Below, piece after piece: positions 13,845 through 53,994 of a stretch of 64,000 nt of DNA. Location of the stretch: assembly GCA_004297215.1 (NCBI GenBank), contig SCUM01000001.1, forward strand, positions 612,275 through 676,274, given 5' to 3'. The translations under genes were made by a program, and so were the position numbers. This stretch comes from Patescibacteria group bacterium. GTDB lineage: Bacteria; Patescibacteriota; Patescibacteriia; UBA9934; GWF2-40-263. Each line of letters opens with the position of its first letter. The first letter of the stretch is position 1. The notes beneath the pieces are model-generated. The model saw only the letters and a list, made by a program, of their open reading frames with translations, had not been told where the DNA came from and searched no databases.

Positions 13845-13855
13845 AGGTCGGTCGG

Positions 13856-32234: not shown

Positions 32235-32330
32235 GGGGTAGTGCGTAGAGGGATGATTGATTGCGGTTTTAGACGTAATACGCAAGAATTCCACCTACGC
32301 ACTACGAACTACCAACTACGCACTCTATGA
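32221..32330. repeat. REP-like imperfect inverted repeat with GTAGTGCGTAG core (family copy 2)
   Basis: TAGTGCGTAGGACGTAGGGGGTAGTGCGTAGAGGG ...(40 nt)... CCACCTACGCACTACGAACTACCAACTACGCACTC. Overlaps the stop of the upstream gene and ends at the galU ATG. Confidence 0.55.
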
Positions 32331-33190
32331 TCCGCAAAGCGATCATCCCTGTCGCCGGCATGGGAACCAGATTCCTCCCCGCTTCCAAGGCGCAACCGAA
32401 GGAGATGCTTGCCGTGGTCGACAAGCCGGTCATCCAGTACATCGTCGAAGAAGCCGTCGCGAGCGGGATCGAGGAGATCATCTTCGTCACCTCCATCGGG
32501 AAGCGCGCCATCGAAGACCATTTTGACCGCAACTTCGAGCTCGAATATCGCTTGGAACAGAAGAAGAAGATGAAGGAACTCTCCCTCGTCGGGGCGATCG
32601 GCAAACTGGCCAAATTCGCCTTCGTGCGCCAGACGAAACCCCTGGGCGACGGGCATGCGGTACTCGCGGCGCTCCCCTTCATCGACCGGCACGAGCCGGT
32701 GGCGGTGCTGTTCGGCGACGACATCATCGACGGCAAGGTCCCGGCGCTCAAGCAGTTGCTTGAGGTGTACGAAAAATATCAGGACCCGGTGGTGGCCTTG
32801 CAACAGGTTCCGAAAAAGGACGTGTCGAGCTACGGGGTGATTGGCGGGAAGAAGATCAATAAGGCCACCTGGGAGGTGAAGACCTTCGTCGAGAAGCCGG
32901 CCGTGAAGGACGCGCCGAGCAACAACATCGTGATCGGCCGGTACGTGCTCACGCCCGACGTGCTTGCCGTGCTCGAGGACCAGCGCGCCGGCAAGGATGG
33001 GGAGATCCGCCTCGCCGACGCCTTCGCCACCTATCTGCAATCCGGCCGACCCATCTACGGCCACCTGTTCGAGGGCACCCGATACGACTGCGGCAACAAG
33101 CTCGGGTTCCTGAAGGCGCAGATAGAATTGGGACTGAAACATCCGGAAGTCGGGAAGGAGCTGAGGAAGTACCTGCGCGCCGTCCGTTAG
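32327..33190 (+). CDS. galU: UTP--glucose-1-phosphate uridylyltransferase
   Basis: KAIIPVAGMGTRFLPASKAQPKEMLAVVDKPVIQYIVEEA and VEKP motifs. 287 aa. Confidence 0.85.
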   Translation: MIRKAIIPVAGMGTRFLPASKAQPKEMLAVVDKPVIQYIVEEAVASGIEEIIFVTSIGKRAIEDHFDRNFELEYRLEQKKKMKELSLVGAIGKLAKFAFVRQTKPLGDGHAVLAALPFIDRHEPVAVLFGDDIIDGKVPALKQLLEVYEKYQDPVVALQQVPKKDVSSYGVIGGKKINKATWEVKTFVEKPAVKDAPSNNIVIGRYVLTPDVLAVLEDQRAGKDGEIRLADAFATYLQSGRPIYGHLFEGTRYDCGNKLGFLKAQIELGLKHPEVGKELRKYLRAVR

Positions 33191-33250: not shown

Positions 33251-34633
33251 ATGACATTCTCCAAACGCTCGATTGCCGGCGCGCTCCTGACCGCGCTCGT
33301 CCTCACCGGCCAAGGCTGCGGCGGCCCCAGCGCGGCCGAAGTGGCGGCAACGAAGCCCGTCACCCTCACCGTGTGGCGCGTGTTCGACACGGCGAACACC
33401 ATGCGTGACATCATGGACGCGTACACGAAGGTGCATACGAACGTGTCGTTCAAGTACGTGCAGCTGCGTCCCGAGGAATACCGGGACGAGCTCCTGCGAG
33501 CGTTCGCCGAAGGCAAGGGTCCGGACATCTTCTCGGTGCACAACGACGGCATGGGCGAATTCAAGAGCCTCATGGCCCCGCTGCCGGCAACCCTCAAGAT
33601 CCCCTATACGACCGTGACCGGCTCCGTCAAGAAGGAAAAGGTGACGGTCATCCGCGAGGATCCCACCATCACCCCGCGCGAGGTGCGCCGCGACTTCCTC
33701 GACGTGGTGGCGGGCGACGTCGTGCTCCCGTTCCAGGCCACGCAGAACGCCCCCACCGAAGAAAAGGTGTACGGCCTCCCGCTCTTCGTGGACACCATGG
33801 CGCTGTACGTGAACCGTGACCTCTTGAACGCGGCCGGCATCGCGGAGCCGCCCGTCACGTGGGACGAGTTCCAGGCCGCCGTGATGAAGCTCACCAAGGT
33901 GGGCCCGAACAACGAGATCATCCAGTCCGGCGCCGCGCTGGGCACCGGGGCCAACGTGGAGCGCGCGTTCGACATCCTGTCGGTGCTCATGATGCAAAAC
34001 GGCACCCAGATGACGGATTCCCGCGGAAACCCGACCTTCGGCTCCTACGAGACTCCCGCGCACACGAATCCCGGGCAGGACGCCGTGCGCTTTTACACCG
34101 ATTTCGCCAATCCCACCAAGGAGGTGTACGGCTGGAACGCGCAGCAACCCAACTCCTTCGACGCGTTCGTGGCGGGAAAGACCGCGTTCTTCTTCGGCTA
34201 CGCCTACCACCTCCCACGCATCCGCGCCCGCGCGCCCAAGATGAACGTCGAGGTGAGCCCCATGCCGCAGATCAAGGACAGCCGCGCGGTGAACATGGCC
34301 AACTACTGGATCGAGACCGTGTCAAAGGCGAGCAAGAACCAGAACTTCGCCTGGGACTTCGTGCAGTTCGCCGCCTCGGCCGAACAGGTGCCGAGCTACT
34401 TGAAGGCCGCCGCAAGGCCCACGGCGCGGCGCGCCCTCATCCAGTCCCAGGTGAACGACGAGGACCTCGCGGTGTTCGTGGGGCAGCTTCTCACGGCCAA
34501 GGATTGGTACCGCGGGGCGGACGCCGCGACGGCCGAGGCCGCCTTTGAGAAGCTGATCGACGACGTGCTCGCCGGCATGGACGTGGAAGACGCCATAAAG
34601 TCCGCCCAGAACCGCGTGATCCAAACCTTATGA
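33251..34633 (+). CDS. ABC transporter substrate-binding lipoprotein (family 1, sugar-type), orphan
   Basis: Lipobox LTGQGCGG. Typical SBP_bac_1 length (460 aa). No permease or ATPase genes adjacent. Confidence 0.7.
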   Translation: MTFSKRSIAGALLTALVLTGQGCGGPSAAEVAATKPVTLTVWRVFDTANTMRDIMDAYTKVHTNVSFKYVQLRPEEYRDELLRAFAEGKGPDIFSVHNDGMGEFKSLMAPLPATLKIPYTTVTGSVKKEKVTVIREDPTITPREVRRDFLDVVAGDVVLPFQATQNAPTEEKVYGLPLFVDTMALYVNRDLLNAAGIAEPPVTWDEFQAAVMKLTKVGPNNEIIQSGAALGTGANVERAFDILSVLMMQNGTQMTDSRGNPTFGSYETPAHTNPGQDAVRFYTDFANPTKEVYGWNAQQPNSFDAFVAGKTAFFFGYAYHLPRIRARAPKMNVEVSPMPQIKDSRAVNMANYWIETVSKASKNQNFAWDFVQFAASAEQVPSYLKAAARPTARRALIQSQVNDEDLAVFVGQLLTAKDWYRGADAATAEAAFEKLIDDVLAGMDVEDAIKSAQNRVIQTL

Positions 34634-35211
34634 GCGCCATCTGCAACGGGGCGTCCTGCACGGTCGCGGAGGTCGGCAGGTTCATGGCCGGCATCAGCAA
34701 GGCGTGCGGCAATGAGGGCAACTGCCAGCTGCCGGACATCATGCAGGTGATCGTGAACATCGGGAATTTCGTACTCGGACTCGTGGGCGCGGTCGTGTTC
34801 CTCATGTACGTCATCGGCGGGTTCTGGTTCATCTTCGCGCACGGCAACATGGAATACGTGAAGAAGGGAAAGACCATGATGACGACCGCCACCGTCGGAT
34901 TGTTCATCGTGTTCTTCGCCTTTGCGGGGATCCAGACCTTGAAGAGCGTGCTCTCAGGCACGACCGCGGTACAGAAAGGCGGCAAGTACGTCCTGTGCAC
35001 AGGGACGGCGACCGAAGACCAGGCCTGCGCCCTCAACAGCACCTGCAAGGGGTTCGTATGCACGAGCACCTGCGATGCCGACCACCCCAACGGCGATTTC
35101 CTATGCGCAGACAAGAACGATCCGTTCACCGCGCAGCGGATCACGAGCGAATGCGAACCCAAAAAATGCCCTGGAGGCGATGCGGTGCAGTGTTGCAGAC
35201 TGAAGAAATGA
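34630..35211 (+). CDS. pilin-like small membrane protein P1 (TrbC/VirB2-type T4SS-pilin-like TM hairpin, C-terminal 12-Cys domain)
   Basis: Core GLVGAVVFLMYVIGGFWFIFAHGNMEYVKKGKTMMTTATVGLFIVFFAFAGI is shared with the four downstream paralogs. The start overlaps the SBP stop (ATGA). Confidence 0.5.
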   Translation: MSAICNGASCTVAEVGRFMAGISKACGNEGNCQLPDIMQVIVNIGNFVLGLVGAVVFLMYVIGGFWFIFAHGNMEYVKKGKTMMTTATVGLFIVFFAFAGIQTLKSVLSGTTAVQKGGKYVLCTGTATEDQACALNSTCKGFVCTSTCDADHPNGDFLCADKNDPFTAQRITSECEPKKCPGGDAVQCCRLKK

Positions 35212-35741
35212 TTCCTCTTCCTATGAACCGCCTTACTCTCATCCTTACGTCACTCGCCCTCTCGGCCAGCCTTCTCCCGACGCCCGTGTCGGCGCAAGCC
35301 GGACCCCAGACGTGCGTGGACTCCTGCATAACGCTGTGCGCGACGGATCCTGACAGTCCAGACTGTCCGGATCCTCCCAATGAGGAAGGGTGCAACGCGC
35401 AGTGCGGCATTGCCCCTCCGACCACTCCGCCGGAGACGTCGGTCGGCGCACCAGCTCCGACCCCGCCTCCTGCCGACGTCCCCCGCACCCTCCAGAATCC
35501 GCTCGGCACCTCCGACCTGCGCCAGGTCATCGGCAACATCGTGCGGGCGCTCCTGGGATTTGCAGGGGCCGGGGCCTTGCTCATGTTCGTGTGGGGAGGG
35601 TTCCAGTTCATGATGGCCGCCGGGAACCCGAAGAACGTGGAGAAGGGCAAGCTGACGCTGATTTGGGCCACCGTAGGACTTGTGGTAATATTCTCGGCAT
35701 ACACCCTGCTCGACACCCTTATCAAGGCCCTGTCGGGATAG
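35208..35741 (+). CDS. pilin-like protein P2 (signal peptide, N-terminal Cys-rich and Pro-rich region, C-terminal pilin-like TM hairpin)
   Basis: GFAGAGALLMFVWGGFQFMMAAGNPKNVEKGKLTLIWATVGLVVIFSAYTLL. The start overlaps the P1 stop. Confidence 0.5.
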   Translation: MIPLPMNRLTLILTSLALSASLLPTPVSAQAGPQTCVDSCITLCATDPDSPDCPDPPNEEGCNAQCGIAPPTTPPETSVGAPAPTPPPADVPRTLQNPLGTSDLRQVIGNIVRALLGFAGAGALLMFVWGGFQFMMAAGNPKNVEKGKLTLIWATVGLVVIFSAYTLLDTLIKALSG

Positions 35742-35793
35742 CGTGCTCTAAGCCACATTCATTCCTTAATCCTGTCTCATCAGGAGACGTCAT

Positions 35794-36216
35794 ATGCAGA
35801 AATCGTTCGCAAGGATCGCCGGCAAAGCCGCCGGCATCGCCGCAGCGGCCCAGGGCGCCCTCATCGCCGCGCACGTCAAGGCCCAGGCCCTCACGGGCGA
35901 GGAACTGTTCGGCGGCGCCGGGAGCACCACCGGCGGGACCGATTTCGCGGCCGCCGCAGGCCTCGGCTCCGGCGACCTTACCGACACCATCGCCTCCATC
36001 ATCCGCACGGCGCTCGGATTCCTGGGCGTGGTCGCGGTGGTCATCACCCTGTACGGCGGCTTCCTGTGGATGACATCCGCCGGCAACGACGACAAGGTGA
36101 AGTCCGCCAAGAAGGTGATGATCTCGGGCATCATCGGCCTCGTCATCATCCTCTCCGCCTTTGCCCTCGCGAACTTCGTCATCACCCAGCTCTCCGGCGC
36201 CACGGCCGGGGCCTGA
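35794..36216 (+). CDS. pilin-like protein P3 (signal peptide plus pilin-like TM hairpin)
   Basis: AGGAG RBS. GFLGVVAVVITLYGGFLWMTSAGNDDKVKSAKKVMISGIIGLVIILSAFALANFV. Confidence 0.55.
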   Translation: MQKSFARIAGKAAGIAAAAQGALIAAHVKAQALTGEELFGGAGSTTGGTDFAAAAGLGSGDLTDTIASIIRTALGFLGVVAVVITLYGGFLWMTSAGNDDKVKSAKKVMISGIIGLVIILSAFALANFVITQLSGATAGA

Positions 36217-36302
36217 TCCTTTCCCCATTCCCCCTCCAAAGCCCCGCAAGGGCGAAGGAGGGGTCATGGCTCGAGCTCCGACCGCCGGTCGAGGCTCGCG
36301 CT

Positions 36303-36797
36303 ATGGCAACCCAGGCTTCGGACCTGATCTCAGGCGGACTGAATAAGGCGGCGGGCACGGCTGGATTCGGTACCGTTGCTGCCAGCGCACCTTCCAACCT
36401 TGGGGTTCTCATCGGCAAGCTCCTTTCCGCGGTGCTCGGCATCCTGGGCCTCGCGCTCGTCGTCTTGCTCATCTACGGCGGCATCCTGTATCTTACGGCT
36501 GCGGGGAACGAGGAGAACGTGAAGAAAGCCAAGCGCACCATCATGAACGCCGTCATAGGCATCGTGATCGTCGCCTCCTCTTACGCCCTCGCGAGTTTCG
36601 TGGTTTCACAGCTGCAGCGTGCGGGGAGAGAAGAGATCGAACTCACTTCCCAGGAGCTTGCCGAGATTTGTGCGCTGGATCCGACCAGCTCTGCGTGCCC
36701 GCAGGGCGCTGGTACGTCAGGAAGCGGAACCTCTGGTGGAGGTGGTACCCCATGTCCTCCGGGTCAGACCTTCGTGAATGGAGCATGTAGCTTCTAA
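36303..36797 (+). CDS. pilin-like protein P4 (pilin-like hairpin plus C-terminal Cys/Gly-rich tail)
   Basis: GILGLALVVLLIYGGILYLTAAGNEENVKKAKRTIMNAVIGIVIVASSYALASFV. Start uncertain: a strong SD/ATG at 36266 lies in another frame. Confidence 0.45.
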   Translation: MATQASDLISGGLNKAAGTAGFGTVAASAPSNLGVLIGKLLSAVLGILGLALVVLLIYGGILYLTAAGNEENVKKAKRTIMNAVIGIVIVASSYALASFVVSQLQRAGREEIELTSQELAEICALDPTSSACPQGAGTSGSGTSGGGGTPCPPGQTFVNGACSF

Positions 36798-36821
36798 AAA
36801 CAATTGGTTCATAACGACCAT

Positions 36822-37205
36822 ATGAAACGTCTTTCTCTCAAGCTTTCCGCCGCCGCGTCGGCCGCTTCCCTCGCGCTCGCCCCGCTCGCCACCCGCGCTG
36901 CCATCACGCTGGACAAAGGACTCGCCGATATCGAAAGCGCCTCGGGCCTCACGGGCGGCGAGGGCGGCCTTCCCGCGCTCATCGGCAACCTCATCAAGGG
37001 GGTGCTCGGGGTGCTGGGCATCATCCTCGTCATCTACCTCGTGTGGGCCGGATTCAAGTGGATGACCGCGGCCGGAGACAGCAAGAAGGTGGATGAGGCG
37101 AAAGCCATGATCCAGAACGCGGTGATCGGCATCGTCATCGTGGTCGCCGCCTACGCCATCGCGAGCTTCGTCATCAAACTGCTCTCGACCGCGGTCGGCG
37201 GCTAG
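36822..37205 (+). CDS. pilin-like protein P5 (signal peptide plus pilin-like TM hairpin)
   Basis: MKRLSLKLSAAASAASLALAPLATRA signal. GVLGIILVIYLVWAGFKWMTAAGDSKKVDEAKAMIQNAVIGIVIVVAAYAIASFV. Confidence 0.55.
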   Translation: MKRLSLKLSAAASAASLALAPLATRAAITLDKGLADIESASGLTGGEGGLPALIGNLIKGVLGVLGIILVIYLVWAGFKWMTAAGDSKKVDEAKAMIQNAVIGIVIVVAAYAIASFVIKLLSTAVGG

Positions 37206-37306
37206 TCGCGGACACAATCGGAATTCAAAAGCGCCCTTCCCCACGAACCAGGGAGGGCGCTTTGTTTCCAGATTTCGTTGACGCTGGAAACCGCGTCATT
37301 GGCGTT

Positions 37307-37888
37307 TTACGCCGGTCTGCACGTGTGCGGACTGTGCACCACGTGCTGGCTCCGTCCGAACATCTTGTACGTGCACGTCCCGACTCGCTCGGTCTGCGTG
37401 CTGTAGACCGAGTCGTTGATCGGGACGAAGACGAACGTGTCGAACGCCGCCTCGTCGCCGAACTTGAACCGCTTCAGGTCCGCCTGCGTCGTGTGGCCGG
37501 CGTAGACCCTTCCGTCGGGAAGCGTCACGTAGCCATCGAGCAGGCACGTCTGCTCCGTGCCCGGCCGCTTCATCACGCTGTAGCCGACCAGCGTGAGCTC
37601 TCCCCCGCCCTTCGACGGGCAGTAGAGACGCGGCACGTCGTCAGCGACGAACCGGTTGGCGTCCTCCCGCAGGGAAGCGACGCACAGGCCGATGCTCGCG
37701 TGCCCACACTCCGTGGTGGCCATGCGGGCGAGCGCGGGGTTGGCGGGGATGAACGGCATCTCCGTCGGTTGTCCCGGCATCACCACCTGCGGCGGGACGA
37801 AGGTCCCGAACGGGGTAGTACAGGTGCCACAGGCAGTGTTGAGACCGACTGTGATGAGAACGAGGACGACGCTGATGATCTGGTTCAT
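37307..37888 (-). CDS. secreted cysteine-rich protein, unknown function
   Basis: Signal peptide (MNQIISVVLVLITVGLNTA) and more than 8 Cys. 193 aa. Confidence 0.5.
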   Translation of the reverse strand: MNQIISVVLVLITVGLNTACGTCTTPFGTFVPPQVVMPGQPTEMPFIPANPALARMATTECGHASIGLCVASLREDANRFVADDVPRLYCPSKGGGELTLVGYSVMKRPGTEQTCLLDGYVTLPDGRVYAGHTTQADLKRFKFGDEAAFDTFVFVPINDSVYSTQTERVGTCTYKMFGRSQHVVHSPHTCRPA

Positions 37889-37924
37889 GGTGTGCTCCTG
37901 TGTCTGGGTGGGTGTGTGGAACTG

Positions 37925-38506
37925 CTAGTCGTCATCTCCGACCATTTTGGTGAGCGCGTCGACATCGCTGTCGAGCTCCTTGATGGCCGCGCCGTGCTCA
38001 TCGACCGTCTTCTTCAGGTCCGCCGGCGCCGACGTTGCCGCCGTGCCGGGCGAGATCACCTGCGGCGGGGCCGTGGCGGCTCCGAGCAGGGCACAGTCGA
38101 TCGGATCGCTGCACAGGCCACCGCCGTACGCCCCATTGGCGCCAAGGCGGTGCACGCTCTCGTGCTCGTTCTCGGTGCGCGCGAGCAAGGCCGCGTCCTG
38201 GGCCCCCACGGCGTCCGTGGTGACCGTCCGCTGCTTGCCGGCGATGAGCCATTTCAGGCACTTGCCCGCCGTGACGTTTCCCTTGCCGTCGTCGATGCGC
38301 TCGTGCTCGGCGCACCGGTCGGGCACCGGGGCCTTTACGACCTGGCCGGTCTTCTCGTCGACCTTGGACTGATACTCCGGCTCGAAGTCCTCGATCACCA
38401 CCTTGGTATTGGTGGGATGGAAGAACCCTTCGAGGCTGACCGGGGTCGAGCAGCCGGCGAGGGCCGCGACGAACAGGATCACGAACGTGGTTGCGATGTC
38501 GTTCAC
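37925..38506 (-). CDS. predicted lipoprotein, Cys-containing, unknown function
   Basis: GTG start with GAGAG upstream. VILFVAALAGCS lipobox. Acidic C-terminus. Confidence 0.4.
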   Translation of the reverse strand: MNDIATTFVILFVAALAGCSTPVSLEGFFHPTNTKVVIEDFEPEYQSKVDEKTGQVVKAPVPDRCAEHERIDDGKGNVTAGKCLKWLIAGKQRTVTTDAVGAQDAALLARTENEHESVHRLGANGAYGGGLCSDPIDCALLGAATAPPQVISPGTAATSAPADLKKTVDEHGAAIKELDSDVDALTKMVGDDD

Positions 38507-38683
38507 TTGGAACTCTCTTTCTTTGGATTGTGAGGGTGCGAATCCCTCTGGGTGACGGGGTTGAGAAATGGTTTGCTGACCTGCCGTATCTGGAAAAACC
38601 CCAATTCCAGAACGTGTGAATATACCACTTTTTTGGGGTTTTGTCAAGGGGAAGAGGTTGATAAATTGGCTGTAATTAGCAAA

Positions 38684-38790
38684 ATGAAGGATGTAGTATG
38701 AAGAATGTAGGATACAAAAAAGCGCTCGTTTCCGACGCTTTCCATTCATCCTTCATCCTACAGTCTTCATCCTTCATTCTGCTCCCCAAT
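38684..38790. repeat. imperfect inverted repeat (ATGAAGGATGTAG...CTACAGTCTTCATCCTTCAT) with nested central hairpin
   Basis: Arms GAAGGATGTAGTATGAAGAATGTAGGAT and ATCCTTCATCCTACAGTCTTCATCCTTC flank AAAGCGCTCGTTTCCGACGCTTT. Lies in the intergenic region 3' of the giant gene. Confidence 0.5.
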
Positions 38791-38850
38791 AAAAAAAGCT
38801 GGTTGCCATGGGAGTACCCATGACTTCCAGCCTCCGTGTAGCCTCTTCTT

Positions 38851-41800
38851 TCAGCCCGTGCACCCGAGGAGCTTCATCCGCTCCGCCGACAGCCCGTACT
38901 TGGCCGCCTTGGCGCACTTGTCCGTCTTCTTCGGCTTGTCGTTGGAAGCGGTCTTTCCGTGACCGCCGCCTCCGTTGCCGTTGCCATTCGACGCGCCCTT
39001 GTCAGCGACGGTCGTCGGCTTCTTCTCGCCCTTCAGCTCGGCCAGCTCGCCTTGCAGGGCCTTCAGCTCTGCCTTGAGCTTCGTCACGTCAGCCTTTGCT
39101 GCCGTGCCCTGCCTTTCGAACTCTTCCCGCTCGCTGATGGAGATGCCCTTCTGCTTGCTCATCTCCTTCAGCCCTTCTGCTTTCCCCTCTGCGTCGACAA
39201 TTTCGGCCGGGATCGCGAGGATCCGCGCCGAGATCTCCTTGCGCCGGAGGAGCTTGGCCTTCTCCTCGTCCGTCTCCACGCCCGCACGGAGGGCCTCCAC
39301 CTCGCGCTTCTTGTTTGCGAGGTCCTTCATGGACCCGATCTCCGCCGTCGCTTGCTCGGCGAGCGCGTCGGCCGCCGTCACGACCACCGTCGTCACGTCG
39401 GCGCGGACCTTCTTCGCCGCTTCATACCTGTCCTTACTGATCGGCGCGAACGTTGAGAAGTCCGGTGCGGTGTTTCCGCCGAATCCGGGAATGGTTTTGG
39501 TCTTCCCGTCCGGCGTGGTGACCGTCATCTCCGAACCCTTCACGAAGAACGATCCGACCACCGCCGCCGCGAGCACCACCGAGACGCCGGTCACGGGGAT
39601 CCAAGCGAACTTGTGATCCTTGAACCGGTACCAGGCGGCAAACGCCGCCGCCGCGACCACGACCAGGATAGCGACCGCCACCAGGAACGCCGCATTCACC
39701 TGCACGCCGTACCAGAGGCCGCGGAGGACGTCCTGGAGGTGCGTCGACGACTGGTACAGGGTCCAGACGAGCGCCGCCACCACCACCGTCGGGATGAGCC
39801 AGTAGCACAGCAACGCGCTGCGCTTCATAAGCGACACCCAGATCCGGTCGATACTGCTTAGCTTGCTCTCGTCCTCCTTCCCGTCCTCGCCCCTGGCCTT
39901 GCGCAGCACCTGCTCCGCGTTGCTCATCTGCGCCCAGTGCGCCACGTAGAGCCCCATCACGCCCAGGGTGAGCGCAAGCCGCATGCCGAACGGGTACTTG
40001 GCACCCGGGTCCATCCACTCGAGCACCGCCGCGTACGCCGTCCCGATGCCCAGCACGACCAGCCCGAGCATGACCAGGTTGCGGAACTTCGTGATCGTCC
40101 CGGGCGTGTCGTCCTTGTAGTTCAGTCCCTGGTCGGTGCGGTCGAGCATCTCCTGCAGCAAGGTCGCCACCGGAGCGGTGAGGACCACCCCGACGATGCC
40201 CGCGAGCAGAGAGAACGCCGCCCCGACGAATCCGCCACCCATCGCGCCGAGTACCGTCACGACGACGGCCGCGGCGAGCGGGATAGCGTACGCCCAGAGC
40301 ACCTTCGGCACCGCCTCGATGAACCTCCGCGCCCGTCCCTTCTTGGGCGGCGGGGGCGGAGGTGGCGGGGGTTGCACGGCCGACTTCTTGGCCACTTCGA
40401 ACGCCTCGTCATGCGCCTTGCCAATAAGTGCCATGAGGCGTTTGCGGTGGCGCTCGGCCAAGTCGACGGCCTTTTGCAACGCCTGCGGATCCGTGGAAGG
40501 CGGATTCGCGGGCTTCAAACCATCCGCGACGGTCCGCGCCCAGTCGAAGCTGTTGGTGGGGTTCTTCCCCACCTTTGCTTGCGTCTGGCCGATGCGCAGG
40601 CACATGAACGCTTGCTTGCGCAGGCTCTTGATCTTAAACACCGATCCGAGCGCCGCATCGAACGCCGCCTTCGTGTCCTCGCCAGCCTTGGCTTGCGCCT
40701 CGGCAACGGCGAGGAACATCTCCGCCCTCTTCTGCGGATCCTCCTCGGCCCGCGCCTCGAGCGCCGTCGCGAGCGCGCCGGACAGGTCCGGCTTCTCCAC
40801 GACGACCGCCGCCGGCTCCTCATCTTCCTTCTTGAGGAGGCCGCCGACGAAGTTCACCACCGTGACCGCGCCGAGCCCCGCCTTGTTGGCAAGCTCCTGC
40901 CTGCCCTTGGCGAAGGCGCGGATGGCCGCCGTGACGTCGTCGAAGCCCTTGTCAGTGAGCTCGCCGTCGTCGTCGAACACGTCGTTCTCGACCAGGGCCG
41001 CTGCGACTTCGCTCGGGAGGTTCATCACCTCGTCGAGATACCCGTGGCCTTCGATCTGCTTGAACAGATCTGGGCTGCGATGCGCGGCGGAGCCATAGGC
41101 GATGGCGATGGCGATGACGTTGCCGTCGATCTCCTTGCGCTCTCCGGGCTTCGCCTCTCCCTCCGCCGGCGCCGCCGCTTTCTTGGCCTCGTCGGCGATG
41201 CGCCGGGCGACCTCGGGCTCGCAGTGCTTGCACACCGCGCTCCCCCCGATGGCTGCCGCGGCTTTCGCTGAGACGAACCGCAGGTTCTTAGTGAAGTCTT
41301 TCGCGTTCGCCTGCAGGAGGGACCCGACCTCGCACAGGAGGACGGGATCCTTCTTCGAGTCGACGGCGACGTTGCCGTCACCGTCGAGCTGCACGGCGTG
41401 GAACACGCCGTCGAGCGTGATCGCGATCGGCCCTTCGAGCGTCTCCCGCTTCGCCACGACCTTCGTCTTGGCGTCGAGGACGGAGTCTCCCGAGCTCGGC
41501 GTCTCGTTCACGTCCTTGATCGGACGCGCCTTGGCCGCGTCGAGGGCGCTCAGGCCCTCGGACAACGTCTGCAGACTGAACTTCTTGACGAGCTGCGAAA
41601 TGAGCCCTGGTCCGAACTCCTTATCGAGGGGAAGCGCGTAGGCCGCATCCGCGAGCAGGGCCGCAATGACTTCGACCGCCACCTCGAGGCTGGGAAGCTT
41701 CAAGGTGATATCCGTCAGCTTCTTCGTGAGCGGCCCGCCTGAGAGCCCCATCTCCTTCAGGTCCTGCACGAGGTGCGGGAGCTGCTGACGGAACTCCTCG

Positions 41801-41931
41801 CCGAGCTTCTTCGCCCCGACTTTCACGCCGAGGTCGAGCGGCTTCGACAGGTCGGGAAACCACTTCTTCCCGAGGGCTACGTCGAGATCCTTGTTCTGGT
41901 TGCCATCGTTCTGCTTGTTCTTCTTGCCCAT
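38851..41931 (-). CDS. giant (1026 aa) multi-pass membrane protein with coiled-coil C-terminus and poly-Pro tract, unknown function
   Basis: Start ATG 41931 (MGKKNKQNDG). Soluble N-half. PPPPPPPPPP at about aa 500, then a block of at least 7 hydrophobic helices. C-terminal K/E-rich coiled coil ending in CAKAAKYGLSAERMKLLGCTG. Confidence 0.55.
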   Translation of the reverse strand: MGKKNKQNDGNQNKDLDVALGKKWFPDLSKPLDLGVKVGAKKLGEEFRQQLPHLVQDLKEMGLSGGPLTKKLTDITLKLPSLEVAVEVIAALLADAAYALPLDKEFGPGLISQLVKKFSLQTLSEGLSALDAAKARPIKDVNETPSSGDSVLDAKTKVVAKRETLEGPIAITLDGVFHAVQLDGDGNVAVDSKKDPVLLCEVGSLLQANAKDFTKNLRFVSAKAAAAIGGSAVCKHCEPEVARRIADEAKKAAAPAEGEAKPGERKEIDGNVIAIAIAYGSAAHRSPDLFKQIEGHGYLDEVMNLPSEVAAALVENDVFDDDGELTDKGFDDVTAAIRAFAKGRQELANKAGLGAVTVVNFVGGLLKKEDEEPAAVVVEKPDLSGALATALEARAEEDPQKRAEMFLAVAEAQAKAGEDTKAAFDAALGSVFKIKSLRKQAFMCLRIGQTQAKVGKNPTNSFDWARTVADGLKPANPPSTDPQALQKAVDLAERHRKRLMALIGKAHDEAFEVAKKSAVQPPPPPPPPPKKGRARRFIEAVPKVLWAYAIPLAAAVVVTVLGAMGGGFVGAAFSLLAGIVGVVLTAPVATLLQEMLDRTDQGLNYKDDTPGTITKFRNLVMLGLVVLGIGTAYAAVLEWMDPGAKYPFGMRLALTLGVMGLYVAHWAQMSNAEQVLRKARGEDGKEDESKLSSIDRIWVSLMKRSALLCYWLIPTVVVAALVWTLYQSSTHLQDVLRGLWYGVQVNAAFLVAVAILVVVAAAAFAAWYRFKDHKFAWIPVTGVSVVLAAAVVGSFFVKGSEMTVTTPDGKTKTIPGFGGNTAPDFSTFAPISKDRYEAAKKVRADVTTVVVTAADALAEQATAEIGSMKDLANKKREVEALRAGVETDEEKAKLLRRKEISARILAIPAEIVDAEGKAEGLKEMSKQKGISISEREEFERQGTAAKADVTKLKAELKALQGELAELKGEKKPTTVADKGASNGNGNGGGGHGKTASNDKPKKTDKCAKAAKYGLSAERMKLLGCTG

Positions 41932-42069
41932 TGGACACTCTCGCTTTCTTCTTTTTGTGCGGGAGGGGACCCCCGCTAGATTTTCAAAGGAGACGCGACC
42001 GGAACCCGGTACGCGATCTCTCCTAACGGGATACTCCCACTCATAAATCCCGCACGGAAAAGACCCTCC

Positions 42070-42098
42070 TATATACGCGAAAAACACCCTTTTGTCAA
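42070..42098 (-). promoter_or_regulatory. strong sigma70-type promoter for the giant gene (minus strand TTGACA-17-TATATA)
   Basis: Consensus -35, 17-bp spacer and an A/T -10, about 140 nt upstream of the ATG at 41931. Confidence 0.5.
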
Positions 42099-42121: not shown

Positions 42122-43336
42122 TTACTTGAGCGAAAAATCTGTTATCAGCCGGCCTTCTTTTATGAGCGTTGTGGCGGCTTGTCGCGCCGTGGCAGTCCCG
42201 ACGAGGGTCGCGCCGACCAATTTCCCCTTTCGGCCGAACAATTGGACGATGCCGGTCGCGGCATCGCCGAGGACCTTCGTCTCGTCGGCTTTTTCCCGCA
42301 TCACGTCGCCGACGAAGGTGATCGGCGTCCCCAAAAGCTGCGTCGCGAATGAGGACACCAGGCAAAACGGCTGCCGCTCCCCGGCCATATTCGCCGCGAC
42401 GCATCGCCCCTGCATCTGCGCGTTCATCCAGCTCCCCACCATGCGCTGCCGGCCGACGGACAGGTCGAAGAACTCGGCCACGTCCCCGGCGGTCCACACG
42501 TTGGGCGCGTTCGTCTCCAGATATTCGTTTGCCTTCACTCCCTGCCCCACCTCCACGCCGCCTTCGCGGATCCACGAAAGCTCGGCTTCGAGTCCGAGGC
42601 CCAGGCCGACGATCGCTGCCGAGTCCGCGGGCACAGACCCCCTCATGCTCCCCCTTTCCAAGGGGGAGGTAGCGCAGTTCGTCACGAGCGTGACGCCGGA
42701 TGATTCGAGCTTCGTGCGCAGCATCTCCCACGAAGCGCCGTCGAGCGACGAGGAGAAGAACCGGTCGCCGCGCAGCCGCACTTCGATGGGCAACGCACGC
42801 GAAGCGAACAGGTCCACGAACTCGCAGGCGATGAACCCGCCGCCGTAGACGACGCCGCGCGGCTCGCGCCCTACCTCACCCATGCCCTCTCCTTCTAAAG
42901 GAGAGGGGTAGCTGGCTTCGTCCAGCAGCTTCAAGATGTGGTCGGCATCATCCACCGTCTGCATGTGGCAAACATTGCGTCCCTCGAGGTCAGCAGGGCG
43001 CGGCTGGCCGCCGGTGGCGATGAGGAGCTTGTCGTATTCCAGCTCGCGGCCGTCGGAAAGGGTGACGAACGCGTTCTTCGTATCGAGCGCCTGTGCGAAC
43101 GTGCCGGCGAGCCACTCGATGCGGTTCTGCGCGTACCACGCGGCCTTTTTCAGGAACACGCGCTCGCGCGGCACCTTGCCTTGCAGGTAGTGCGGGATCA
43201 GCACGCGCGAATAGAGCGGATGGAATTCCTCGCTCACCAGCGTGATCTGCGCGTCCGGCAGGCGCTTGCGCAGCTCCTCGGCCGCGGTCGTGCCGGCGAT
43301 TCCCCCACCCGCGATGACGAACCGTGTCTCGCTCAC
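42122..43336 (-). CDS. FAD-dependent pyridine nucleotide-disulfide oxidoreductase (ferredoxin/rubredoxin reductase-like)
   Basis: VIAGGGIAGTTAAEELRK dinucleotide motif, second Rossmann VVYGGGFIACEF. GTG start overlapping the ferredoxin stop (ATGTGA). Confidence 0.7.
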   Translation of the reverse strand: MSETRFVIAGGGIAGTTAAEELRKRLPDAQITLVSEEFHPLYSRVLIPHYLQGKVPRERVFLKKAAWYAQNRIEWLAGTFAQALDTKNAFVTLSDGRELEYDKLLIATGGQPRPADLEGRNVCHMQTVDDADHILKLLDEASYPSPLEGEGMGEVGREPRGVVYGGGFIACEFVDLFASRALPIEVRLRGDRFFSSSLDGASWEMLRTKLESSGVTLVTNCATSPLERGSMRGSVPADSAAIVGLGLGLEAELSWIREGGVEVGQGVKANEYLETNAPNVWTAGDVAEFFDLSVGRQRMVGSWMNAQMQGRCVAANMAGERQPFCLVSSFATQLLGTPITFVGDVMREKADETKVLGDAATGIVQLFGRKGKLVGATLVGTATARQAATTLIKEGRLITDFSLK

Positions 43337-43602
43337 ATTTCCGGAAACAGCTGTTTTCCCGCCTCGTCGTACACGAAGATGGCGAGCGTGGGGCAGGACT
43401 GCGCGCCCAGAAGGATGTTTTCCATCTCGGATTGCGTCACCTCAAGCTCGCGCTCATAGCTCTCTCCGCCCGGCTCTTGCCCGTGGTCGAGGACGTCGGC
43501 CTTGTTCTCGGCGTTTAGCTGGAACGTGTCCGGAGCGATGGTGACGCAGCTCGCGGCACCGATGCAGAGGTCGGGATCCACTTTCACTTTGATGCGAGGC
43601 AT
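43333..43602 (-). CDS. small ferredoxin (single Fe-S cluster, CxxxxC...C type)
   Basis: MPRIKVKVDPDLCIGAASCVTIAPDTF...AQSCPTLAI. 89 aa. Confidence 0.7.
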   Translation of the reverse strand: MPRIKVKVDPDLCIGAASCVTIAPDTFQLNAENKADVLDHGQEPGGESYERELEVTQSEMENILLGAQSCPTLAIFVYDEAGKQLFPEM

Positions 43603-43603
43603 A

Positions 43604-44234
43604 TCAACCGAAATACTTTTCCTTATAAAAACGGATCAGTTCCTCCGCCGCCGGCAAGACGCCAGGGTTGCCGATGCCGACCTTGGTCTTCTGTTGGACG
43701 GCCTCGAGCGTATGCGCCCCTTCGAGCACCGCCTCCTCGATGTCGCGGTCCGTGACCTTGGCGACCGGGTCCACCAGGCGGGCGGATTCGACCACCATCT
43801 TATCGGTCTTGCCCGCTCGGCGGTAGTAATCGTTGATGGCGTCTCGCAGCGCCTTGTCGCACAGCACCGAACAATGGAACTTGCGCGCGGGCAGACCGCC
43901 CAGGCGCGCCATGATGTCCTGCGGCTTGAGGTCGCGCGCCTCATCGAGCGTCATGCCGCCGTTCTCGGTCACCATCACCGACGCCATGGAGGTCGAGGCG
44001 ATGGCGCTCCCGCACCCGAACGTCTTCCAGCGGAACTCCCGGATGCGTTCGGACTCGGGATCCACCTTCATCCACACGCGCAACTCGTCGCCGCAGGCCG
44101 GACTCCCCACCTTGCCGGTGGCATCGTACTCGTCGGGACCCACGTCGCGATCGATGAAGTTCTTCGGCCTGAAAAAGTGCTCCTTCACGGTGTCGGAATA
44201 GAACCAGGATTGCTTGCGGTCTCGGCTGGTGACG

Positions 44235-44254
<20 letters not shown>
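43604..44254 (-). CDS. Fe-S cluster assembly scaffold (IscU/NifU-like) with C-terminal extension
   Basis: GSPACGD, FGCGSAIAS and HCS cysteine motifs of U-type scaffolds. Confidence 0.8.
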
Positions 44255-45434
<1,180 letters not shown>

Positions 45435-45520
45435 AACAGGCGGAAGGTAACAGCGAAAACCATCCCTGACAAGAGATGGGGGCGAGGTTCAACCTCCAAG
45501 GTTGAACCTCGCCCCGGACT

Positions 45521-46069
45521 TCAGAGAACCACCCCGAACCTCGTCCGCACGAACCACCCGATGAGGAACCCGATGAGCGCCGCGCCCATGGATACCGCGA
45601 GCATTTCTAACCCGGACCTGATCCGATCCTGCTTCGTGAAAGAGGCGCTCCAATACCCGAGGCCGAACAGCGAGACCCCGGTGCAGGCGATGGACGGGAG
45701 ATACGCGTTTTGGATGGGCAGGAGAAGGTACGGCAGCAACGGGACGAATCCGCCCGCGAAATAGAACGTTCCCATGACGAGCGCCGAACGCCGAGGAGTG
45801 ATCTCTTCCTGATGCCTGCGACGATGTCCGTCGCGCTCGAACGCCTTCTCGGCCGCCGCGGACGACTTGGTGGAAAGATAGCTTCCGGCCGCCATGGAGG
45901 TGGCCTCTACGGCGATCAGCACGAGCCCCGAGAGCACGACGACGTAACTGCTTCCCGTCCCGGCCGCGATCCCGGTGATGGTGCCGAGCGTGGAAACCAG
46001 GCTGTCTTCCAGCCCAAAGACGATTTCCCGCATCGAGCTCACGATGTCTTTCCTCCATCCTCCTTGCAT
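45521..46069 (-). CDS. VIT1/CCC1-family membrane protein (putative Fe/Mn transporter)
   Basis: EIVFGLEDSLVSTLGTITG start and C-terminal TM helices, as in the VIT family. Confidence 0.55.
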   Translation of the reverse strand: MQGGWRKDIVSSMREIVFGLEDSLVSTLGTITGIAAGTGSSYVVVLSGLVLIAVEATSMAAGSYLSTKSSAAAEKAFERDGHRRRHQEEITPRRSALVMGTFYFAGGFVPLLPYLLLPIQNAYLPSIACTGVSLFGLGYWSASFTKQDRIRSGLEMLAVSMGAALIGFLIGWFVRTRFGVVL

Positions 46070-46105
46070 ACTTTCGTGTATTATACCGTATCATTGACTC
46101 ACCCT

Positions 46106-46549
46106 ATGAATATCCCGGAAAAATACCGCCCGTTCGATCGCCCCACGCTCATCGTCGTCACGGATAACGTGCAAGCGAAGCTGTTCAAGGCCGATGGCCG
46201 CGAGGTGAACCTGGTCCATCTCATCTCCAAGAAACTTGAACCCATGGAACAGGAGCGTTCCGCCGTGATGACCGGCGCCGGCCCCCGCAGCGCCGACGAG
46301 CACAACAAGGGGGAGCTGAAAGCGTGGACGCGCGAGCGCCTGTACACGGAGCTTTCGACGGACCTCATGCATCGTCTCCAGGCAAAGGAATTCGAGGCGT
46401 TGGCCTTCACCGCGCCGGAAGAAGACATGAACGAGCTCAAGGAATGCCTGCACGTGGACCTGCTCAAGCACGCGACCGTGTTCGTTCCGAAGGACCTGGT
46501 GAACGACGAATTGGTGGACATCGTCATCCACGTGCAAGATGAGATGTAG
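46106..46549 (+). CDS. hypothetical protein (147 aa)
   Basis: ATG-initiated ORF with terminator. No confident family. Confidence 0.45.
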   Translation: MNIPEKYRPFDRPTLIVVTDNVQAKLFKADGREVNLVHLISKKLEPMEQERSAVMTGAGPRSADEHNKGELKAWTRERLYTELSTDLMHRLQAKEFEALAFTAPEEDMNELKECLHVDLLKHATVFVPKDLVNDELVDIVIHVQDEM

Positions 46550-52245: not shown

Positions 52246-52546
52246 ATCGATTCCCCCCTTCCTTGTCACCCCGTTATCTATTATTAGATAGATAGAGTAT
52301 GAGACTCACGAAGATAGTAAGGGGTGTGGACGGGGTGGATAGATAAGGAATAGGCTTAATATTCGCGAAAAAACAGTTGTAAGGAATGTGCATGGACCAC
52401 CCCTTTGTCTTGAGGATGATCGGAGGATGGAAGATGAGATGGAATTCCCTTTCCGATCATCCCCCTTTTCCCCACACGCGCGTCCGCAAGGCATCTCACC
52501 CTCTATCCTCCGGTTATCGACTTGTGGATAGAGGTGGATAAGCTGT
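52246..52546. promoter_or_regulatory. oriC-like dnaA-dnaN intergenic region with DnaA boxes and A/T-rich element
   Basis: TGTGGATAG (52523-52531), GTGGATAAG (52534-52542), TTATCGAC and GGTGGATAGATAAGG (about 52333). A/T-rich TTATCTATTATTAGATAGATAGAG element at about 52275. Confidence 0.5.
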
Positions 52547-53944: not shown

Positions 53945-53994
53945 ACCATCAACGGGACATTCCTCCTTAAATCCATTGAGTGACAGGTAGTGTA

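What the first reader, a model, noticed from the sequence alone, without database searches (positions are those of the whole stretch)
37307..42098. Pilin cluster neighbourhood: two secreted Cys-rich proteins and a 1026-aa membrane/coiled-coil protein with its own consensus promoter
Immediately downstream of the pilin array, on the opposite strand, lie two secreted proteins: a Cys-rich 193-aa protein and a lipoprotein with a GTG start. Next is a giant ORF of 1026 aa with a soluble N-half, a poly-Pro10 tract, at least 7 TM helices, and a long K/E-rich coiled coil ending in a Cys pair. The giant gene is driven by a near-consensus TTGACA-17-TATATA promoter at 42070-42098. The large polytopic protein could be a VirB6/TrbL-like channel or assembly component, or an unrelated envelope-spanning scaffold. 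Co-localisation with the pilin paralogs suggests a surface-appendage or secretion locus. No component has a confident family assignment, so this is the best candidate here for an undescribed system.
Basis: inference. Interest (0 to 1): 0.6.

Follow-up and report, generated by a model that had tools for sequence, protein, structure and literature searches.

The report
Uhrbacteria envelope genes beside pilin array
Next to a row of VirB2-like pilin genes, this tiny groundwater bacterium (Candidate Phyla Radiation, Uhrbacteria) carries three strongly promoted, very fast-evolving envelope genes: a 1026-aa seven-helix membrane protein, a lipoprotein and a secreted Cys-rich protein; they form a conserved but unannotated module whose function is still unknown and which shows no detectable similarity to VirB6.

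Summary
The window has a 1026-aa ORF (38851-41931, minus strand), a GTG-start lipoprotein (37925-38506), an 8-Cys secreted protein (37307-37888) and a TTGACA-17-TATATA promoter (42098-42070). The proline tract is P9, not P10.

The window comes from a Patescibacteria MAG close to Candidatus Uhrbacteria. An exhaustive phmmer search of 1.84 billion representatives found one true homologue of the large protein. Walking the neighbourhoods of solute-binding-protein (SBP) orthologues showed more. Ten other Uhrbacteria loci keep GalU-SBP-(4-7 pilins), then on the opposite strand small-small-large. The 666-829-aa positional orthologues link up by weak BLAST hits.

Shared features are a cytoplasmic N-domain, about seven TM helices, and an inferred external tail ending in a Cys pair (8 of 9).

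No member matches TrbL/VirB6 or any other Pfam, NCBIfam or PDB entry. No T4SS machinery gene lies in the window or the loci. AlphaFold models were too poor for a fold test.

The three genes diverge much faster than their flanks (31-36% against 56-87% identity). The large gene is monocistronic. Its leader RNA has a conserved closing helix that includes the Shine-Dalgarno sequence in most orthologues.

Best reading: an abundant, lineage-specific surface module, possibly working with the pilins. The mechanism is unproven.

The parts
38851..41931 (-). Large gene ('BIG'), 1026 aa, including the stop codon. NCBI locus tag EPO34_03310, annotated as a hypothetical protein.
   Evidence: ORF list. Exact match to one database protein from an 842-kb Patescibacteria contig. 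Gene call. GC3 0.86. The N-terminus MGKKNKQ aligns with MANKNKG of the homologue.
40312..41931 (-). Cytoplasmic N-terminal domain, residues 1-540. Helical at the N-terminus, a beta segment at 169-221, then helical.
   Evidence: No signal peptide. The hydrophobic stretch at 75-102 contains acidic residues and is not a TM helix. KKGRARR precedes TM1. Secondary structure. The location is inferred from the positive-inside rule.
41221..41400 (-). H178, C200, C234-x2-C237: a candidate zinc site.
   Evidence: Invariant between the window protein and P0002. A CxxC is also present in the L007 orthologue and the split L012 orthologue. It is absent from L010 and L011, so it is not universal. Metal binding is inferred, not tested.
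40867..41154 (-). Best-conserved block of the N-domain, residues 260-355 (...IAIAIAYG...IEGHGY...VTAAIRAFA...QELANKAGLG).
   Evidence: About 70% identity to P0002 against 31% overall.
40504..40782 (-). About two alpha-solenoid repeats of the 'AEAQAKAG-D' type, residues 384-476. Found only in the window and L002 lineage.
   Evidence: This is the only part that hits unrelated proteins: the C-terminal repeat arrays of TIR/NB-ARC and other STAND proteins, E 4e-10 to 2e-4. It is the best-modelled segment, with pLDDT about 70. It is absent from the other orthologues.
40345..40371 (-). Poly-proline tract, P9, residues 521-529.
39544..40305 (-). Seven-helix membrane domain, residues 543-796.
   Evidence: KD hydropathy. 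Seven helices in both AlphaFold runs. The Lys/Arg-rich loops fall on the N-terminal side.
39016..39435 (-). K/E/A-rich helical, heptad-like stalk, residues 833-972. Inferred to be extracytoplasmic.
   Evidence: Composition. Heptad scan. Long helices with pLDDT 60-73. The homologues have a shorter P/T/S/K-rich linker here.
38860..38916 (-). C-terminal Cys pair, C1006-x17-C1024-x2-end.
   Evidence: A C-x9..20-C-x1..7-COOH ending is present in 8 of 9 positional orthologues.
42070..42098 (-). Promoter of BIG: TTGACA-17-TATATA.
   Evidence: Read. Conserved in L002. A comparable site (at least 10 of 12 hexamer matches) is present in 4 of the 7 other orthologous loci, and a 9/12 site at the edge of the extracted region in L014.
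42049..42063 (-). 5' strand of the leader closing helix P1 (UCUUUUCCGUGCGGG), starting at about the transcription start.
41950..41963 (-). 3' strand of P1 (CCCGCAC-A-AAAAGA), ending about 8 nt upstream of the GAGAG Shine-Dalgarno sequence.
   Evidence: RNAalifold predicts only this helix for 8 leaders: 11 pairs, 92% of cells paired, 5 pairs with compensatory changes. No Rfam match. A pattern search for the motif across the window and 9 loci hits only BIG leaders, in 5 of the sequences.
38791..38835 (-). Intrinsic terminator of BIG: a GC-rich stem followed by U7.
   Evidence: Fold. The terminator and its loop sequence are conserved in L002.
38678..38783 (-). Extra AT-rich 106-nt hairpin with an inner terminator-like hairpin, lying between the BIG terminator and the next promoter.
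   Evidence: Inverted repeat I1. Fold z-score -10 for the region. Absent from L002.
38619..38647 (-). Promoter of the two small genes: TTGACA-17-(TGG)TATATT.
   Evidence: Scan hit with 11 of 12 matches. A TTGACA-17-TAxxxT site lies upstream of gene A in all 10 loci.
37925..38506 (-). Gene A: lipoprotein of 193 aa with a GTG start. It has an LAGC lipobox, a Gly/Tyr-containing middle and an acidic helical tail.
   Evidence: The positional orthologues all start with a hydrophobic signal ending in Cys. Several have G/Y/M-rich low-complexity regions.
37307..37888 (-). Gene B: secreted protein of 193 aa with 8 Cys. The signal ends ...LNTAC, a lipobox-like sequence.
   Evidence: Only itself is found in the word-index search. 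Orthologue s165 in L002 is 36% identical. The longer positional orthologues carry a Sec signal, a coiled coil and a beta domain with DLDGDG.
37228..37267 (.). Bidirectional terminator between the pilin operon and gene B.
   Evidence: A-tract, 13-bp GC-rich stem, then T-tract.
34630..37205 (+). Array of five VirB2-like pilin genes (PF18895). The first overlaps the stop codon of the SBP gene (33251-34633).

Best explanation
The three minus-strand genes form a lineage-specific, highly expressed and rapidly diversifying cell-envelope module of Uhrbacteria.

**The large protein.**
- It is a seven-helix membrane protein.
- Its 350-540-aa N-terminal domain sits in the cytoplasm.
- Its C-terminal tail projects outward. 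In this genome the tail is a helical stalk of about 140 residues; in relatives it is a shorter Pro/Thr/Ser/Lys-rich linker.
- The tail ends in a small loop closed by a Cys pair.

**Its partners and expression.**
- Gene A is a Gly/Tyr-rich lipoprotein and gene B is a Sec-exported protein. I infer that they sit with the large protein at the membrane surface.
- The large gene is transcribed alone from a consensus sigma-70-type promoter.
- Its mRNA leader is closed by a conserved helix. The 3' strand of that helix includes the Shine-Dalgarno sequence in most orthologues and abuts it here. Translation or mRNA stability is therefore probably controlled.

**Shown.** The sequence anatomy, the transcription-unit signals, the family and its conserved position beside the pilin array, the fast divergence, and the absence of any known-family match.

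**Inferred.**
- The topology.
- The disulphide in the terminal loop.
- High abundance.
- A role at the cell surface. I think the most likely role is contact with, or attachment to, a host or partner cell, possibly as an anchor or partner for the neighbouring VirB2-like pilins.
For: **A real family, conserved in position**
- One homologue in 1.84 billion representatives: P0002, E 2.7e-55.
- Positional orthologues are present in every Uhrbacteria locus sampled. One lineage has a split version.
- They are joined by BLAST links: win-L2 2e-56, L2-L7 5e-9, L10-L11 1.5e-28, L10-L8 3e-12, L11-L9 3e-8, L14-L10 2e-40.

**Shared anatomy**
- A cytoplasmic N-domain, about 6-8 TM helices, and a terminal Cys pair in 8 of 9.

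**Fast divergence**
- Against the L002 relative, BIG is 31% identical, gene A 36% over 72 aa and gene B 36% over 101 aa.
- The pilins are 50-75% identical and the housekeeping neighbours 56-87%.

**Strong, separate expression signals**
-.

**Leader helix**
-.

**Envelope targeting of A and B**
-.

**Extracellular Cys is common in this locus**
- Pilins 1, 2 and 4 have 14, 6 and 4 Cys.
Against: - No experimental data and no usable structural model exist (pLDDT 41.7 and 48.5).
- My crude predictor gives 6-8 core TM helices across the orthologues. 'C-terminus outside' therefore rests mainly on the window protein, the positive-inside rule and the Cys pair.
- The conserved neighbourhood also includes unrelated housekeeping genes (GalU, Fe-S assembly). 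Adjacency to the pilins may simply reflect a stable chromosome segment.
- The trio is convergent to the pilin operon and insulated from it by a terminator.
- Fast divergence could reflect weak constraint rather than diversifying selection.
- L013 lacks the terminal Cys pair.
Confidence: 0.4

Rival explanations
1. The large protein is an extremely diverged 'extended VirB6', or an analogue of one. It would be the membrane platform on which the neighbouring VirB2-like pilins are extracted and polymerised, working with a VirB4 encoded elsewhere in the genome.
For: - It is always adjacent to the pilin array in Uhrbacteria.
- It is polytopic and 666-1026 aa long, with large hydrophilic and unstructured parts. 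This matches the description of extended VirB6 and the MPF_FA VirB6 homologues (700-900 aa) in PMC12857230.
- PMC12102498 reports that VirB6 is hard to detect in some Patescibacteria classes and that many pilin genes lie away from virB4.
Against: - No TrbL/VirB6 hit at E <= 1 for any of nine orthologues in Pfam or NCBIfam.
- No PDB sequence or profile hit to VirB6-like chains.
- Foldseek on the low-confidence TM model gave only generic 7-helix noise.
- The hydrophilic mass is N-terminal and cytoplasmic. In extended VirB6 it is central or C-proximal.
- No other T4SS gene lies within 64 kb.
Confidence: 0.15
2. The module has nothing to do with the pilins. The large protein would be a membrane scaffold or signal transducer for another envelope process, such as wall growth, division or sensing. 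It sits beside the pilins only because this origin-proximal segment is syntenic across Uhrbacteria.
For: - The conserved block also contains GalU, the SBP, and PyrRedox-Fdx-NifU-NifS.
- The transcription units are separate and convergent, with a bidirectional terminator between them.
- L011 has purD inserted between the small genes and the large gene.
- The cytoplasmic domain carries protein-interaction-type repeats.
Against: - Synteny to the left of GalU is broken in L008, L009, L012 and L013, while pilins plus trio stay together.
- Housekeeping scaffolds do not usually diverge to 15-30% identity within one candidate phylum while their neighbours stay at 56-87%.
Confidence: 0.25
3. The ORF is a spurious or decaying gene in a GC-rich genome, and the promoter is a chance match.
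For: - GC-rich DNA gives many long ORFs on all frames.
- Almost no database homologues were found.
Against: - GC3 of 0.86 with GC2 of 0.43, typical of the real genes here.
- Full-length orthologue with conserved blocks and a positional family.
- The promoter, leader helix and terminator are conserved across genomes.
Confidence: 0.02

Closest known systems
VirB2-like pilin arrays of Patescibacteria (PF18895), as catalogued in PMC12102498. They are essential in Ca. Southlakia epibionticum (PMC10633639).
   Same: - Tandem array of 5 sequence-divergent VirB2-like pilins (4-7 in relatives).
- Chromosomal and close to dnaA/dnaN.
- No relaxase nearby.
   Different: - Here the array is not next to virB4 or any other T4SS gene within 64 kb.
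- It follows a solute-binding-protein gene, with an overlapping stop/start.
- It is always paired with the unannotated trio, which I did not find mentioned in the sections I read of PMC12102498, PMC12857230 and PMC10633639.
Extended VirB6 / MPF_FA VirB6-like proteins (for example TcpH-type, 700-900 aa)
   Same: Large polytopic membrane proteins with additional hydrophilic or unstructured regions, encoded near other T4SS-type genes.
   Different: - No sequence similarity in any test.
- The hydrophilic domain is N-terminal and cytoplasmic.
- The inferred external tail ends in a Cys pair.
- No VirB4 neighbour.
- The fold could not be tested.
Disulphide-bonded C-terminal loop (D-region) of type IV pilins. 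This comparison rests on my own knowledge and is an analogy only.
   Same: A short loop closed by two Cys at the extreme C-terminus of a surface-exposed protein. It is conserved in position while its sequence varies.
   Different: - The loop here is at the end of a polytopic membrane protein, not a pilin.
- The disulphide is inferred, not shown.
- There is no sequence similarity.
Shine-Dalgarno-sequestering 5' leaders (RNA thermometers, riboswitch expression platforms, 5'-terminal stabiliser hairpins). General knowledge.
   Same: A pyrimidine-rich 5' strand (CUUCU, anti-SD-like) pairs with the GGAG region just before the start codon. The helix begins at the mRNA 5' end.
   Different: - No Rfam family matches.
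- The 70-110 nt enclosed by the helix are not conserved, so no aptamer is evident.
- In the window itself the SD lies about 8 nt beyond the helix.

Membership tests
VirB6 / TrbL (PF04610) including extended VirB6 | Sequence match to the TrbL/VirB6 family profile | tested here: not met
   No hit at E <= 1 in Pfam-A or NCBIfam for the window protein or for any of 9 positional orthologues. The CONJscan PrgH/VirB6 profiles were not available.
VirB6 / TrbL (PF04610) including extended VirB6 | VirB6 fold (pentamer-forming helical domain, as in the R388 structure) | tested here: inconclusive
   - AlphaFold models have pLDDT 41.7 and 48.5.
- Foldseek against the PDB gave best E 0.15 and TM 0.27 to GPCRs, with no VirB6 chain.
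- The PDB profile search was negative.
VirB6 / TrbL (PF04610) including extended VirB6 | Encoded with VirB4 and other T4SS core genes | tested here: not met
   No VirB4, VirD4, VirB3 or VirB8 domain in any sizeable ORF of the 64-kb window or in the called genes of 10 relatives' loci. The rest of the 842-kb genome could not be examined.
VirB6 / TrbL (PF04610) including extended VirB6 | Five or more TM helices with extra hydrophilic domains placed centrally or at the C-terminal side | tested here: inconclusive
   Seven TM helices and a hydrophilic C-tail are present. The largest hydrophilic domain (540 aa) is N-terminal and predicted cytoplasmic.
T4SS_pilin PF18895 (for the neighbouring array only) | Profile match above the gathering score | tested here: met
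   All five pilin ORFs score 27.6-53.3 bits against a cut-off of 26.6. The precomputed hits agree.
Bacterial lipoprotein (gene A) | Signal peptide ending in a lipobox [LVI][ASTVI][GAS]C | tested here: met
   - ...FVAALAGC at residues 12-19.
- Weak LPAM_1 and lipoprotein-model hits only.
- A hydrophobic N-terminal signal ending in Cys recurs in the positional orthologues, canonical in about half of them.
O-antigen ligase / Wzy_C (considered because of a weak BLAST hit) | Profile-profile similarity of the membrane domain | tested here: not met
   hhalign of the 9-sequence TM alignment against 6 Wzy orthologues gave probability 0.06%.
Any Rfam cis-regulatory family (leader RNA) | Covariance-model match | tested here: not met
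   Best E 1.6, far below the gathering score.

The most novel reading that the evidence does not exclude
The large protein, the lipoprotein and the secreted protein would together be a previously unrecognised basal or anchoring apparatus for VirB2-like pili in Uhrbacteria. In that reading it stands in for the membrane components of a type IV secretion system. Its synthesis would be gated by a dedicated Shine-Dalgarno-sequestering leader RNA.
Probability: 0.12. Interest if true: 0.75.

Novelty: new variant of a known kind. Interest (0 to 1): 0.45.

Why it matters
VirB2-like pilin arrays are among the few envelope features of Patescibacteria shown to be essential for their epibiotic life (PMC10633639, PMC12857230). 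How a single-membrane cell would build or anchor such pili is still open.

This locus shows that across one whole candidate phylum the array travels with three unannotated, strongly promoted, fast-evolving envelope proteins, and not with T4SS machinery. That gives concrete candidates for pilus partners or host-contact factors: a defined protein family with a recognisable signature (cytoplasmic N-domain, about seven TM helices, terminal Cys loop) and a conserved leader RNA.

If the module turns out to be unrelated to the pilins, it is still a phylum-specific surface module, and its divergence pattern makes it a candidate determinant of host or phage specificity.

Tried and rejected
**Sequence searches**
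- The word-index search with the full protein found only the protein itself. Low-complexity words probably swamped the candidate list.
- The exhaustive phmmer search found one homologue plus repeat-only hits.
- DNA-pattern scans of the GTDB species genomes and the JGI metagenomes each found only the P0002 lineage.
- Pfam, NCBIfam and PHROGs gave only sub-threshold coiled-coil or TM noise: Cep57, HR1, DUF6057, 7tm_3, MscS_TM and similar, each in a single member.
- PDB phmmer and profile searches gave nothing. A 0.19 hit to a TAX1BP1 zinc finger over the CxxC region is only a hint.

**Structure prediction**
- AlphaFold on the 2-sequence alignment, both full length and TM domain only, gave low confidence.
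- Foldseek on the TM model gave no meaningful match.

**Specific ideas tested and dropped**
- A Wzy relationship suggested by a weak BLAST hit was rejected by hhalign.
- The two 193-aa proteins are not paralogues of each other.
- The Cys-rich protein shows no similarity to pilin 1, including its Cys-rich C-terminal part.
- A C-terminal sorting signal (MYXO-CTERM or PEP-CTERM type) was considered and rejected, because no TM helix follows the Cys pair.
- A small leader peptide in the 5' UTR was considered and dropped, because the candidate mini-ORFs are not conserved between the window and L002.
Full report
**1. What is in the sequence**

The window is GC-rich (about 63%). The 1026-aa protein is identical to NCBI hypothetical protein EPO34_03310 of a 'Patescibacteria group bacterium', on an 842-kb contig. 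Its only close relative is in Candidatus Uhrbacteria bacterium RIFCSPHIGHO2_01_FULL_63_20.

The local gene map comes from ORFs, codon-position GC and Pfam:

| Feature | Coordinates | Strand |
|---|---|---|
| GalU | 32327-33190 | + |
| Solute-binding protein (SBP) | 33251-34633 | + |
| Five PF18895 VirB2-like pilins | 34630-37205 | + |
| Gene B (193 aa, 8 Cys) | 37307-37888 | - |
| Gene A (193 aa, GTG start, LAGC lipobox) | 37925-38506 | - |
| The large gene, 'BIG' | 38851-41931 | - |
| Pyridine-nucleotide oxidoreductase | 42122-43336 | - |
| Ferredoxin, NifU, NifS, VIT1 | 43333-46069 | - |
| dnaN | 51109-52269 | - |
| dnaA | 52547-54010 | - |

The one exception is the proline run, which is P9 (residues 521-529), not P10. 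The promoter reads TTGACA(42098-42093)-17-TATATA(42075-42070).

**2. Transcription units**

- The pilin operon and gene B converge on a bidirectional terminator at 37228-37267.
- Genes A and B lie 36 nt apart. They are preceded by TTGACA-17-(TGG)TATATT at 38647-38619.
- BIG has its own promoter and an intrinsic terminator at 38835-38791, so it is monocistronic.
- Only seven TTGACA-N17-TAnnn[AT] sites occur in 64 kb. Two are these promoters. Others sit upstream of 23S rRNA and the H+-pyrophosphatase gene.
- The same promoter type is found upstream of gene A in all ten loci.
- For BIG, a site with at least 10 of 12 hexamer matches is present in the window, L002, L007, L008, L009 and L011. L014 has a 9/12 site at the edge of the extracted region. 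L010 and L013, where the extracted upstream region was short, have none.
- From this I infer that the genes are strongly expressed.

**3. Anatomy of the large protein**

- There is no signal peptide. KKGRARR lies directly before the first hydrophobic helix.
- Seven helices lie between about 543 and 796.
- The Lys/Arg-rich loops fall on the same side as the N-terminus.
- This gives an N-in, C-out topology, which is an inference.
- The N-domain contains several distinct parts:
  - a helical start;
  - a beta segment carrying H178, C200 and C234-x2-C237, all invariant in the homologue;
  - a block at 260-355 that is about 70% identical to the homologue;
  - two alpha-solenoid repeats at 384-476. 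Their only relatives are the C-terminal repeat arrays of TIR/NB-ARC and other STAND proteins;
  - a long helix followed by the P9 tract.
- After TM7 come a short beta hairpin, about 140 residues of K/E/A-rich heptad-like helix, a Gly/Asn-rich spacer, and the ending C-x17-C-TG.

**4. The family**

- The exhaustive phmmer search (residues 1-860 against 1.84 billion representatives) found one true homologue, P0002 (829 aa, E 2.7e-55).
- P0002 has the same architecture, including a terminal C-x11-C.
- Its locus is fully syntenic with the window.
- That synteny alone is weak evidence, so I anchored on the SBP, which has many Uhrbacteria orthologues at 55-68% identity. I then read nine further neighbourhoods.
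- Every one has GalU-SBP-(4-7 pilins), followed on the opposite strand by a secreted protein, a lipoprotein, a large unannotated membrane protein of 666-813 aa, and then PyrRedox-Fdx-NifU.
- Three loci show variations:
  - L011 has purD inserted.
  - L012 has the large gene split into an N-domain gene and a TM-domain gene.
  - L008 and the P0096 locus carry one extra gene.
- To the left of GalU the neighbourhood differs in L008, L009, L012 and L013. The pilins and the trio therefore stay together through rearrangements.
- The large proteins are only 13-17% identical to the window protein in a multiple alignment. They are still linked by a chain of significant pairwise hits.
- Eight of nine end in C-x9..20-C-x1..7-COOH.
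- This is therefore one very fast-evolving family, unannotated in Pfam and NCBIfam.

**5. Rate of divergence**

Identities between the window and L002:

| Gene set | Amino-acid identity |
|---|---|
| Housekeeping neighbours | 56-87% |
| Pilins | 50-75% |
| BIG | 31% |
| Gene A | 36% over 72 aa |
| Gene B | 36% over 101 aa |

The promoters, the first ~30 nt of the leaders and the terminator loop are better conserved than the proteins they serve.

**6. Genes A and B**

- Position-A proteins all carry an N-terminal hydrophobic signal ending in Cys, a canonical lipobox in about half of them. Several have Gly/Tyr/Met-rich low-complexity cores and a charged helical C-terminus.
- Position-B proteins all have Sec-type signals. 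The longer ones have a coiled coil and a beta domain with a DLDGDG motif, which is weakly FG-GAP-like (E 0.02).
- The window and L002 versions of B are shorter, Cys-rich and lipobox-like.
- Neither family has a database annotation.

**7. Test of the VirB6 idea**

- It is negative at the sequence level for all nine orthologues and for PDB profiles.
- No T4SS machinery gene is in the window or in the relatives' loci.
- Two AlphaFold runs, restricted by the tool to the two admissible sequences, gave pLDDT 41.7 and 48.5.
- Foldseek on the TM model returned only generic seven-helix matches (best E 0.15, TM 0.27). The fold question stays open.
- The literature describes extended and MPF_FA VirB6 proteins as 700-900 aa with extra unstructured domains (PMC12857230). 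It also notes that VirB6 is hard to detect in some Patescibacteria (PMC12102498).
- The idea is therefore not excluded. It now rests on adjacency alone, and the position of the large hydrophilic domain argues against it.

**8. A conserved leader RNA (found along the way)**

- In the window and seven other leaders, a motif YCUUYU-(N)-GUGCGG follows the -10 box. L008 carries a related GUGUGCGG...CCGCACAC pair further downstream as a local hairpin.
- Its complement CCGCAC-(N)-RRAG/GGAG lies just before the start codon.
- Single-sequence folds recover this long-range helix in 6 of 9 leaders.
- RNAalifold on eight leaders predicts only this helix. It has 11 pairs, 92% of cells paired and 5 pairs with compensatory changes. 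The covariation score is reached by 15 of 500 shuffles.
- In most orthologues the GGAG of the Shine-Dalgarno sequence is inside the 3' strand.
- In the window the helix (42063-42049 with 41963-41950) ends about 8 nt before the GAGAG.
- L010 and L014 also allow an alternative local hairpin that would free the SD.
- The enclosed 70-110 nt are not conserved. No Rfam family matches.
- A pattern search for the motif across the window and nine loci hit only BIG leaders (window, L007, L010, L011, L014).
- I read this as a gene-specific translational or stability element. Its trigger is unknown.

**9. Interpretation**

- The evidence supports a conserved, abundant, rapidly diversifying envelope module specific to Uhrbacteria.
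- At its centre is a membrane protein that links a sizeable cytoplasmic domain to an outward stalk ending in a Cys-closed loop.
- Three things make a role at the cell surface, in contact with a host or partner, the most likely function:
  - the conserved neighbourhood with the VirB2-like pilin array;
  - the abundance of extracellular Cys in these proteins;
  - the known importance of such arrays for epibiotic Patescibacteria (PMC10633639; PMC12857230).
- That may be as an anchor or partner of the pili (confidence 0.4 for the general statement).
- The specific 'diverged VirB6 platform' model gets 0.15.
- 'Unrelated envelope scaffold or sensor kept nearby by synteny' gets 0.25.

**10. Novelty and score**

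- Pilin arrays in Patescibacteria are already described.
- The trio and its leader RNA have no Pfam, NCBIfam or Rfam model. I did not find them mentioned in the parts of the three relevant papers I read. These papers are the 2025 T4SS survey, the T4SS nomenclature review and the Southlakia study.
- Unannotated proteins are very common in these genomes, and no mechanism is shown here.
- I therefore rate this a new variant of a known kind of locus, of moderate interest (0.45).

Noticed in passing
window 41950-42063 (minus strand), and the leaders of the orthologous genes in L002, L007, L009-L011, L013 and L014: Conserved long-range helix closing the 5' leader of the large gene (YCUUYU-GUGCGG pairing with CCGCAC-RRAG/GGAG). 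It includes the Shine-Dalgarno sequence in most orthologues, and L008 has a related local hairpin. No Rfam match, and pattern-search hits fall only in this gene's leader.
   Followed up: partly
window 38678-38783: An AT-rich 106-nt near-perfect hairpin built of GAAGGATGAAG-like units, with an inner terminator-like hairpin. It is inserted between the terminator of the large gene and the promoter of gene A, and is absent at the same place in L002. Possibly a small mobile or repeat element.
   Followed up: partly
window 34630-35211: The first pilin gene overlaps the stop codon of the SBP gene (ATGA). As called, it lacks the N-terminal signal peptide that its 220-aa orthologue in L002 has. It carries a 14-Cys content, mostly in a C-terminal extension. 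The SBP-pilin junction (overlap or a gap of a few nt to ~120 nt) is kept in all relatives, and no ABC permease gene is nearby.
   Followed up: partly
window 8158-11403 (minus strand); promoter-like site at 11941-11913: 23S rRNA (3084 nt against a 2925-nt model, so probably carrying an insertion) and 5S rRNA, with no 16S gene in the operon. A consensus promoter lies directly upstream of the 23S.
   Followed up: no
window 13856-13942 (minus strand), inside the listed ORF 13186-16434 (plus strand): A tRNA-Leu gene lies within the 5' part of the 1082-aa lamin-tail-domain ORF. The real start of that gene is probably further downstream.
   Followed up: no
window 45710-46549 (plus strand), and the equivalent gene in L002/L003: A baeRF_family12 / 'Host_attach' domain protein is encoded next to the VIT1 gene. 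The Pfam name refers to attachment to host cells, but the domain is a release-factor-like fold.
   Followed up: no
L012 15885-18261: In one Uhrbacteria lineage the large gene is split into a 395-aa N-domain gene (with its own TTGACA-17-TATAAA promoter and a different leader hairpin) and a 313-aa TM-domain gene that lacks the terminal Cys pair.
   Followed up: partly
window 40504-40782 (residues 384-476 of the large protein): The 'AEAQAKAG-D' alpha-solenoid repeat is shared with the C-terminal sensor arrays of TIR/NB-ARC and trypsin/NACHT-like STAND proteins. It has no Pfam model, so it appears to be an unannotated repeat family in its own right.
   Followed up: partly
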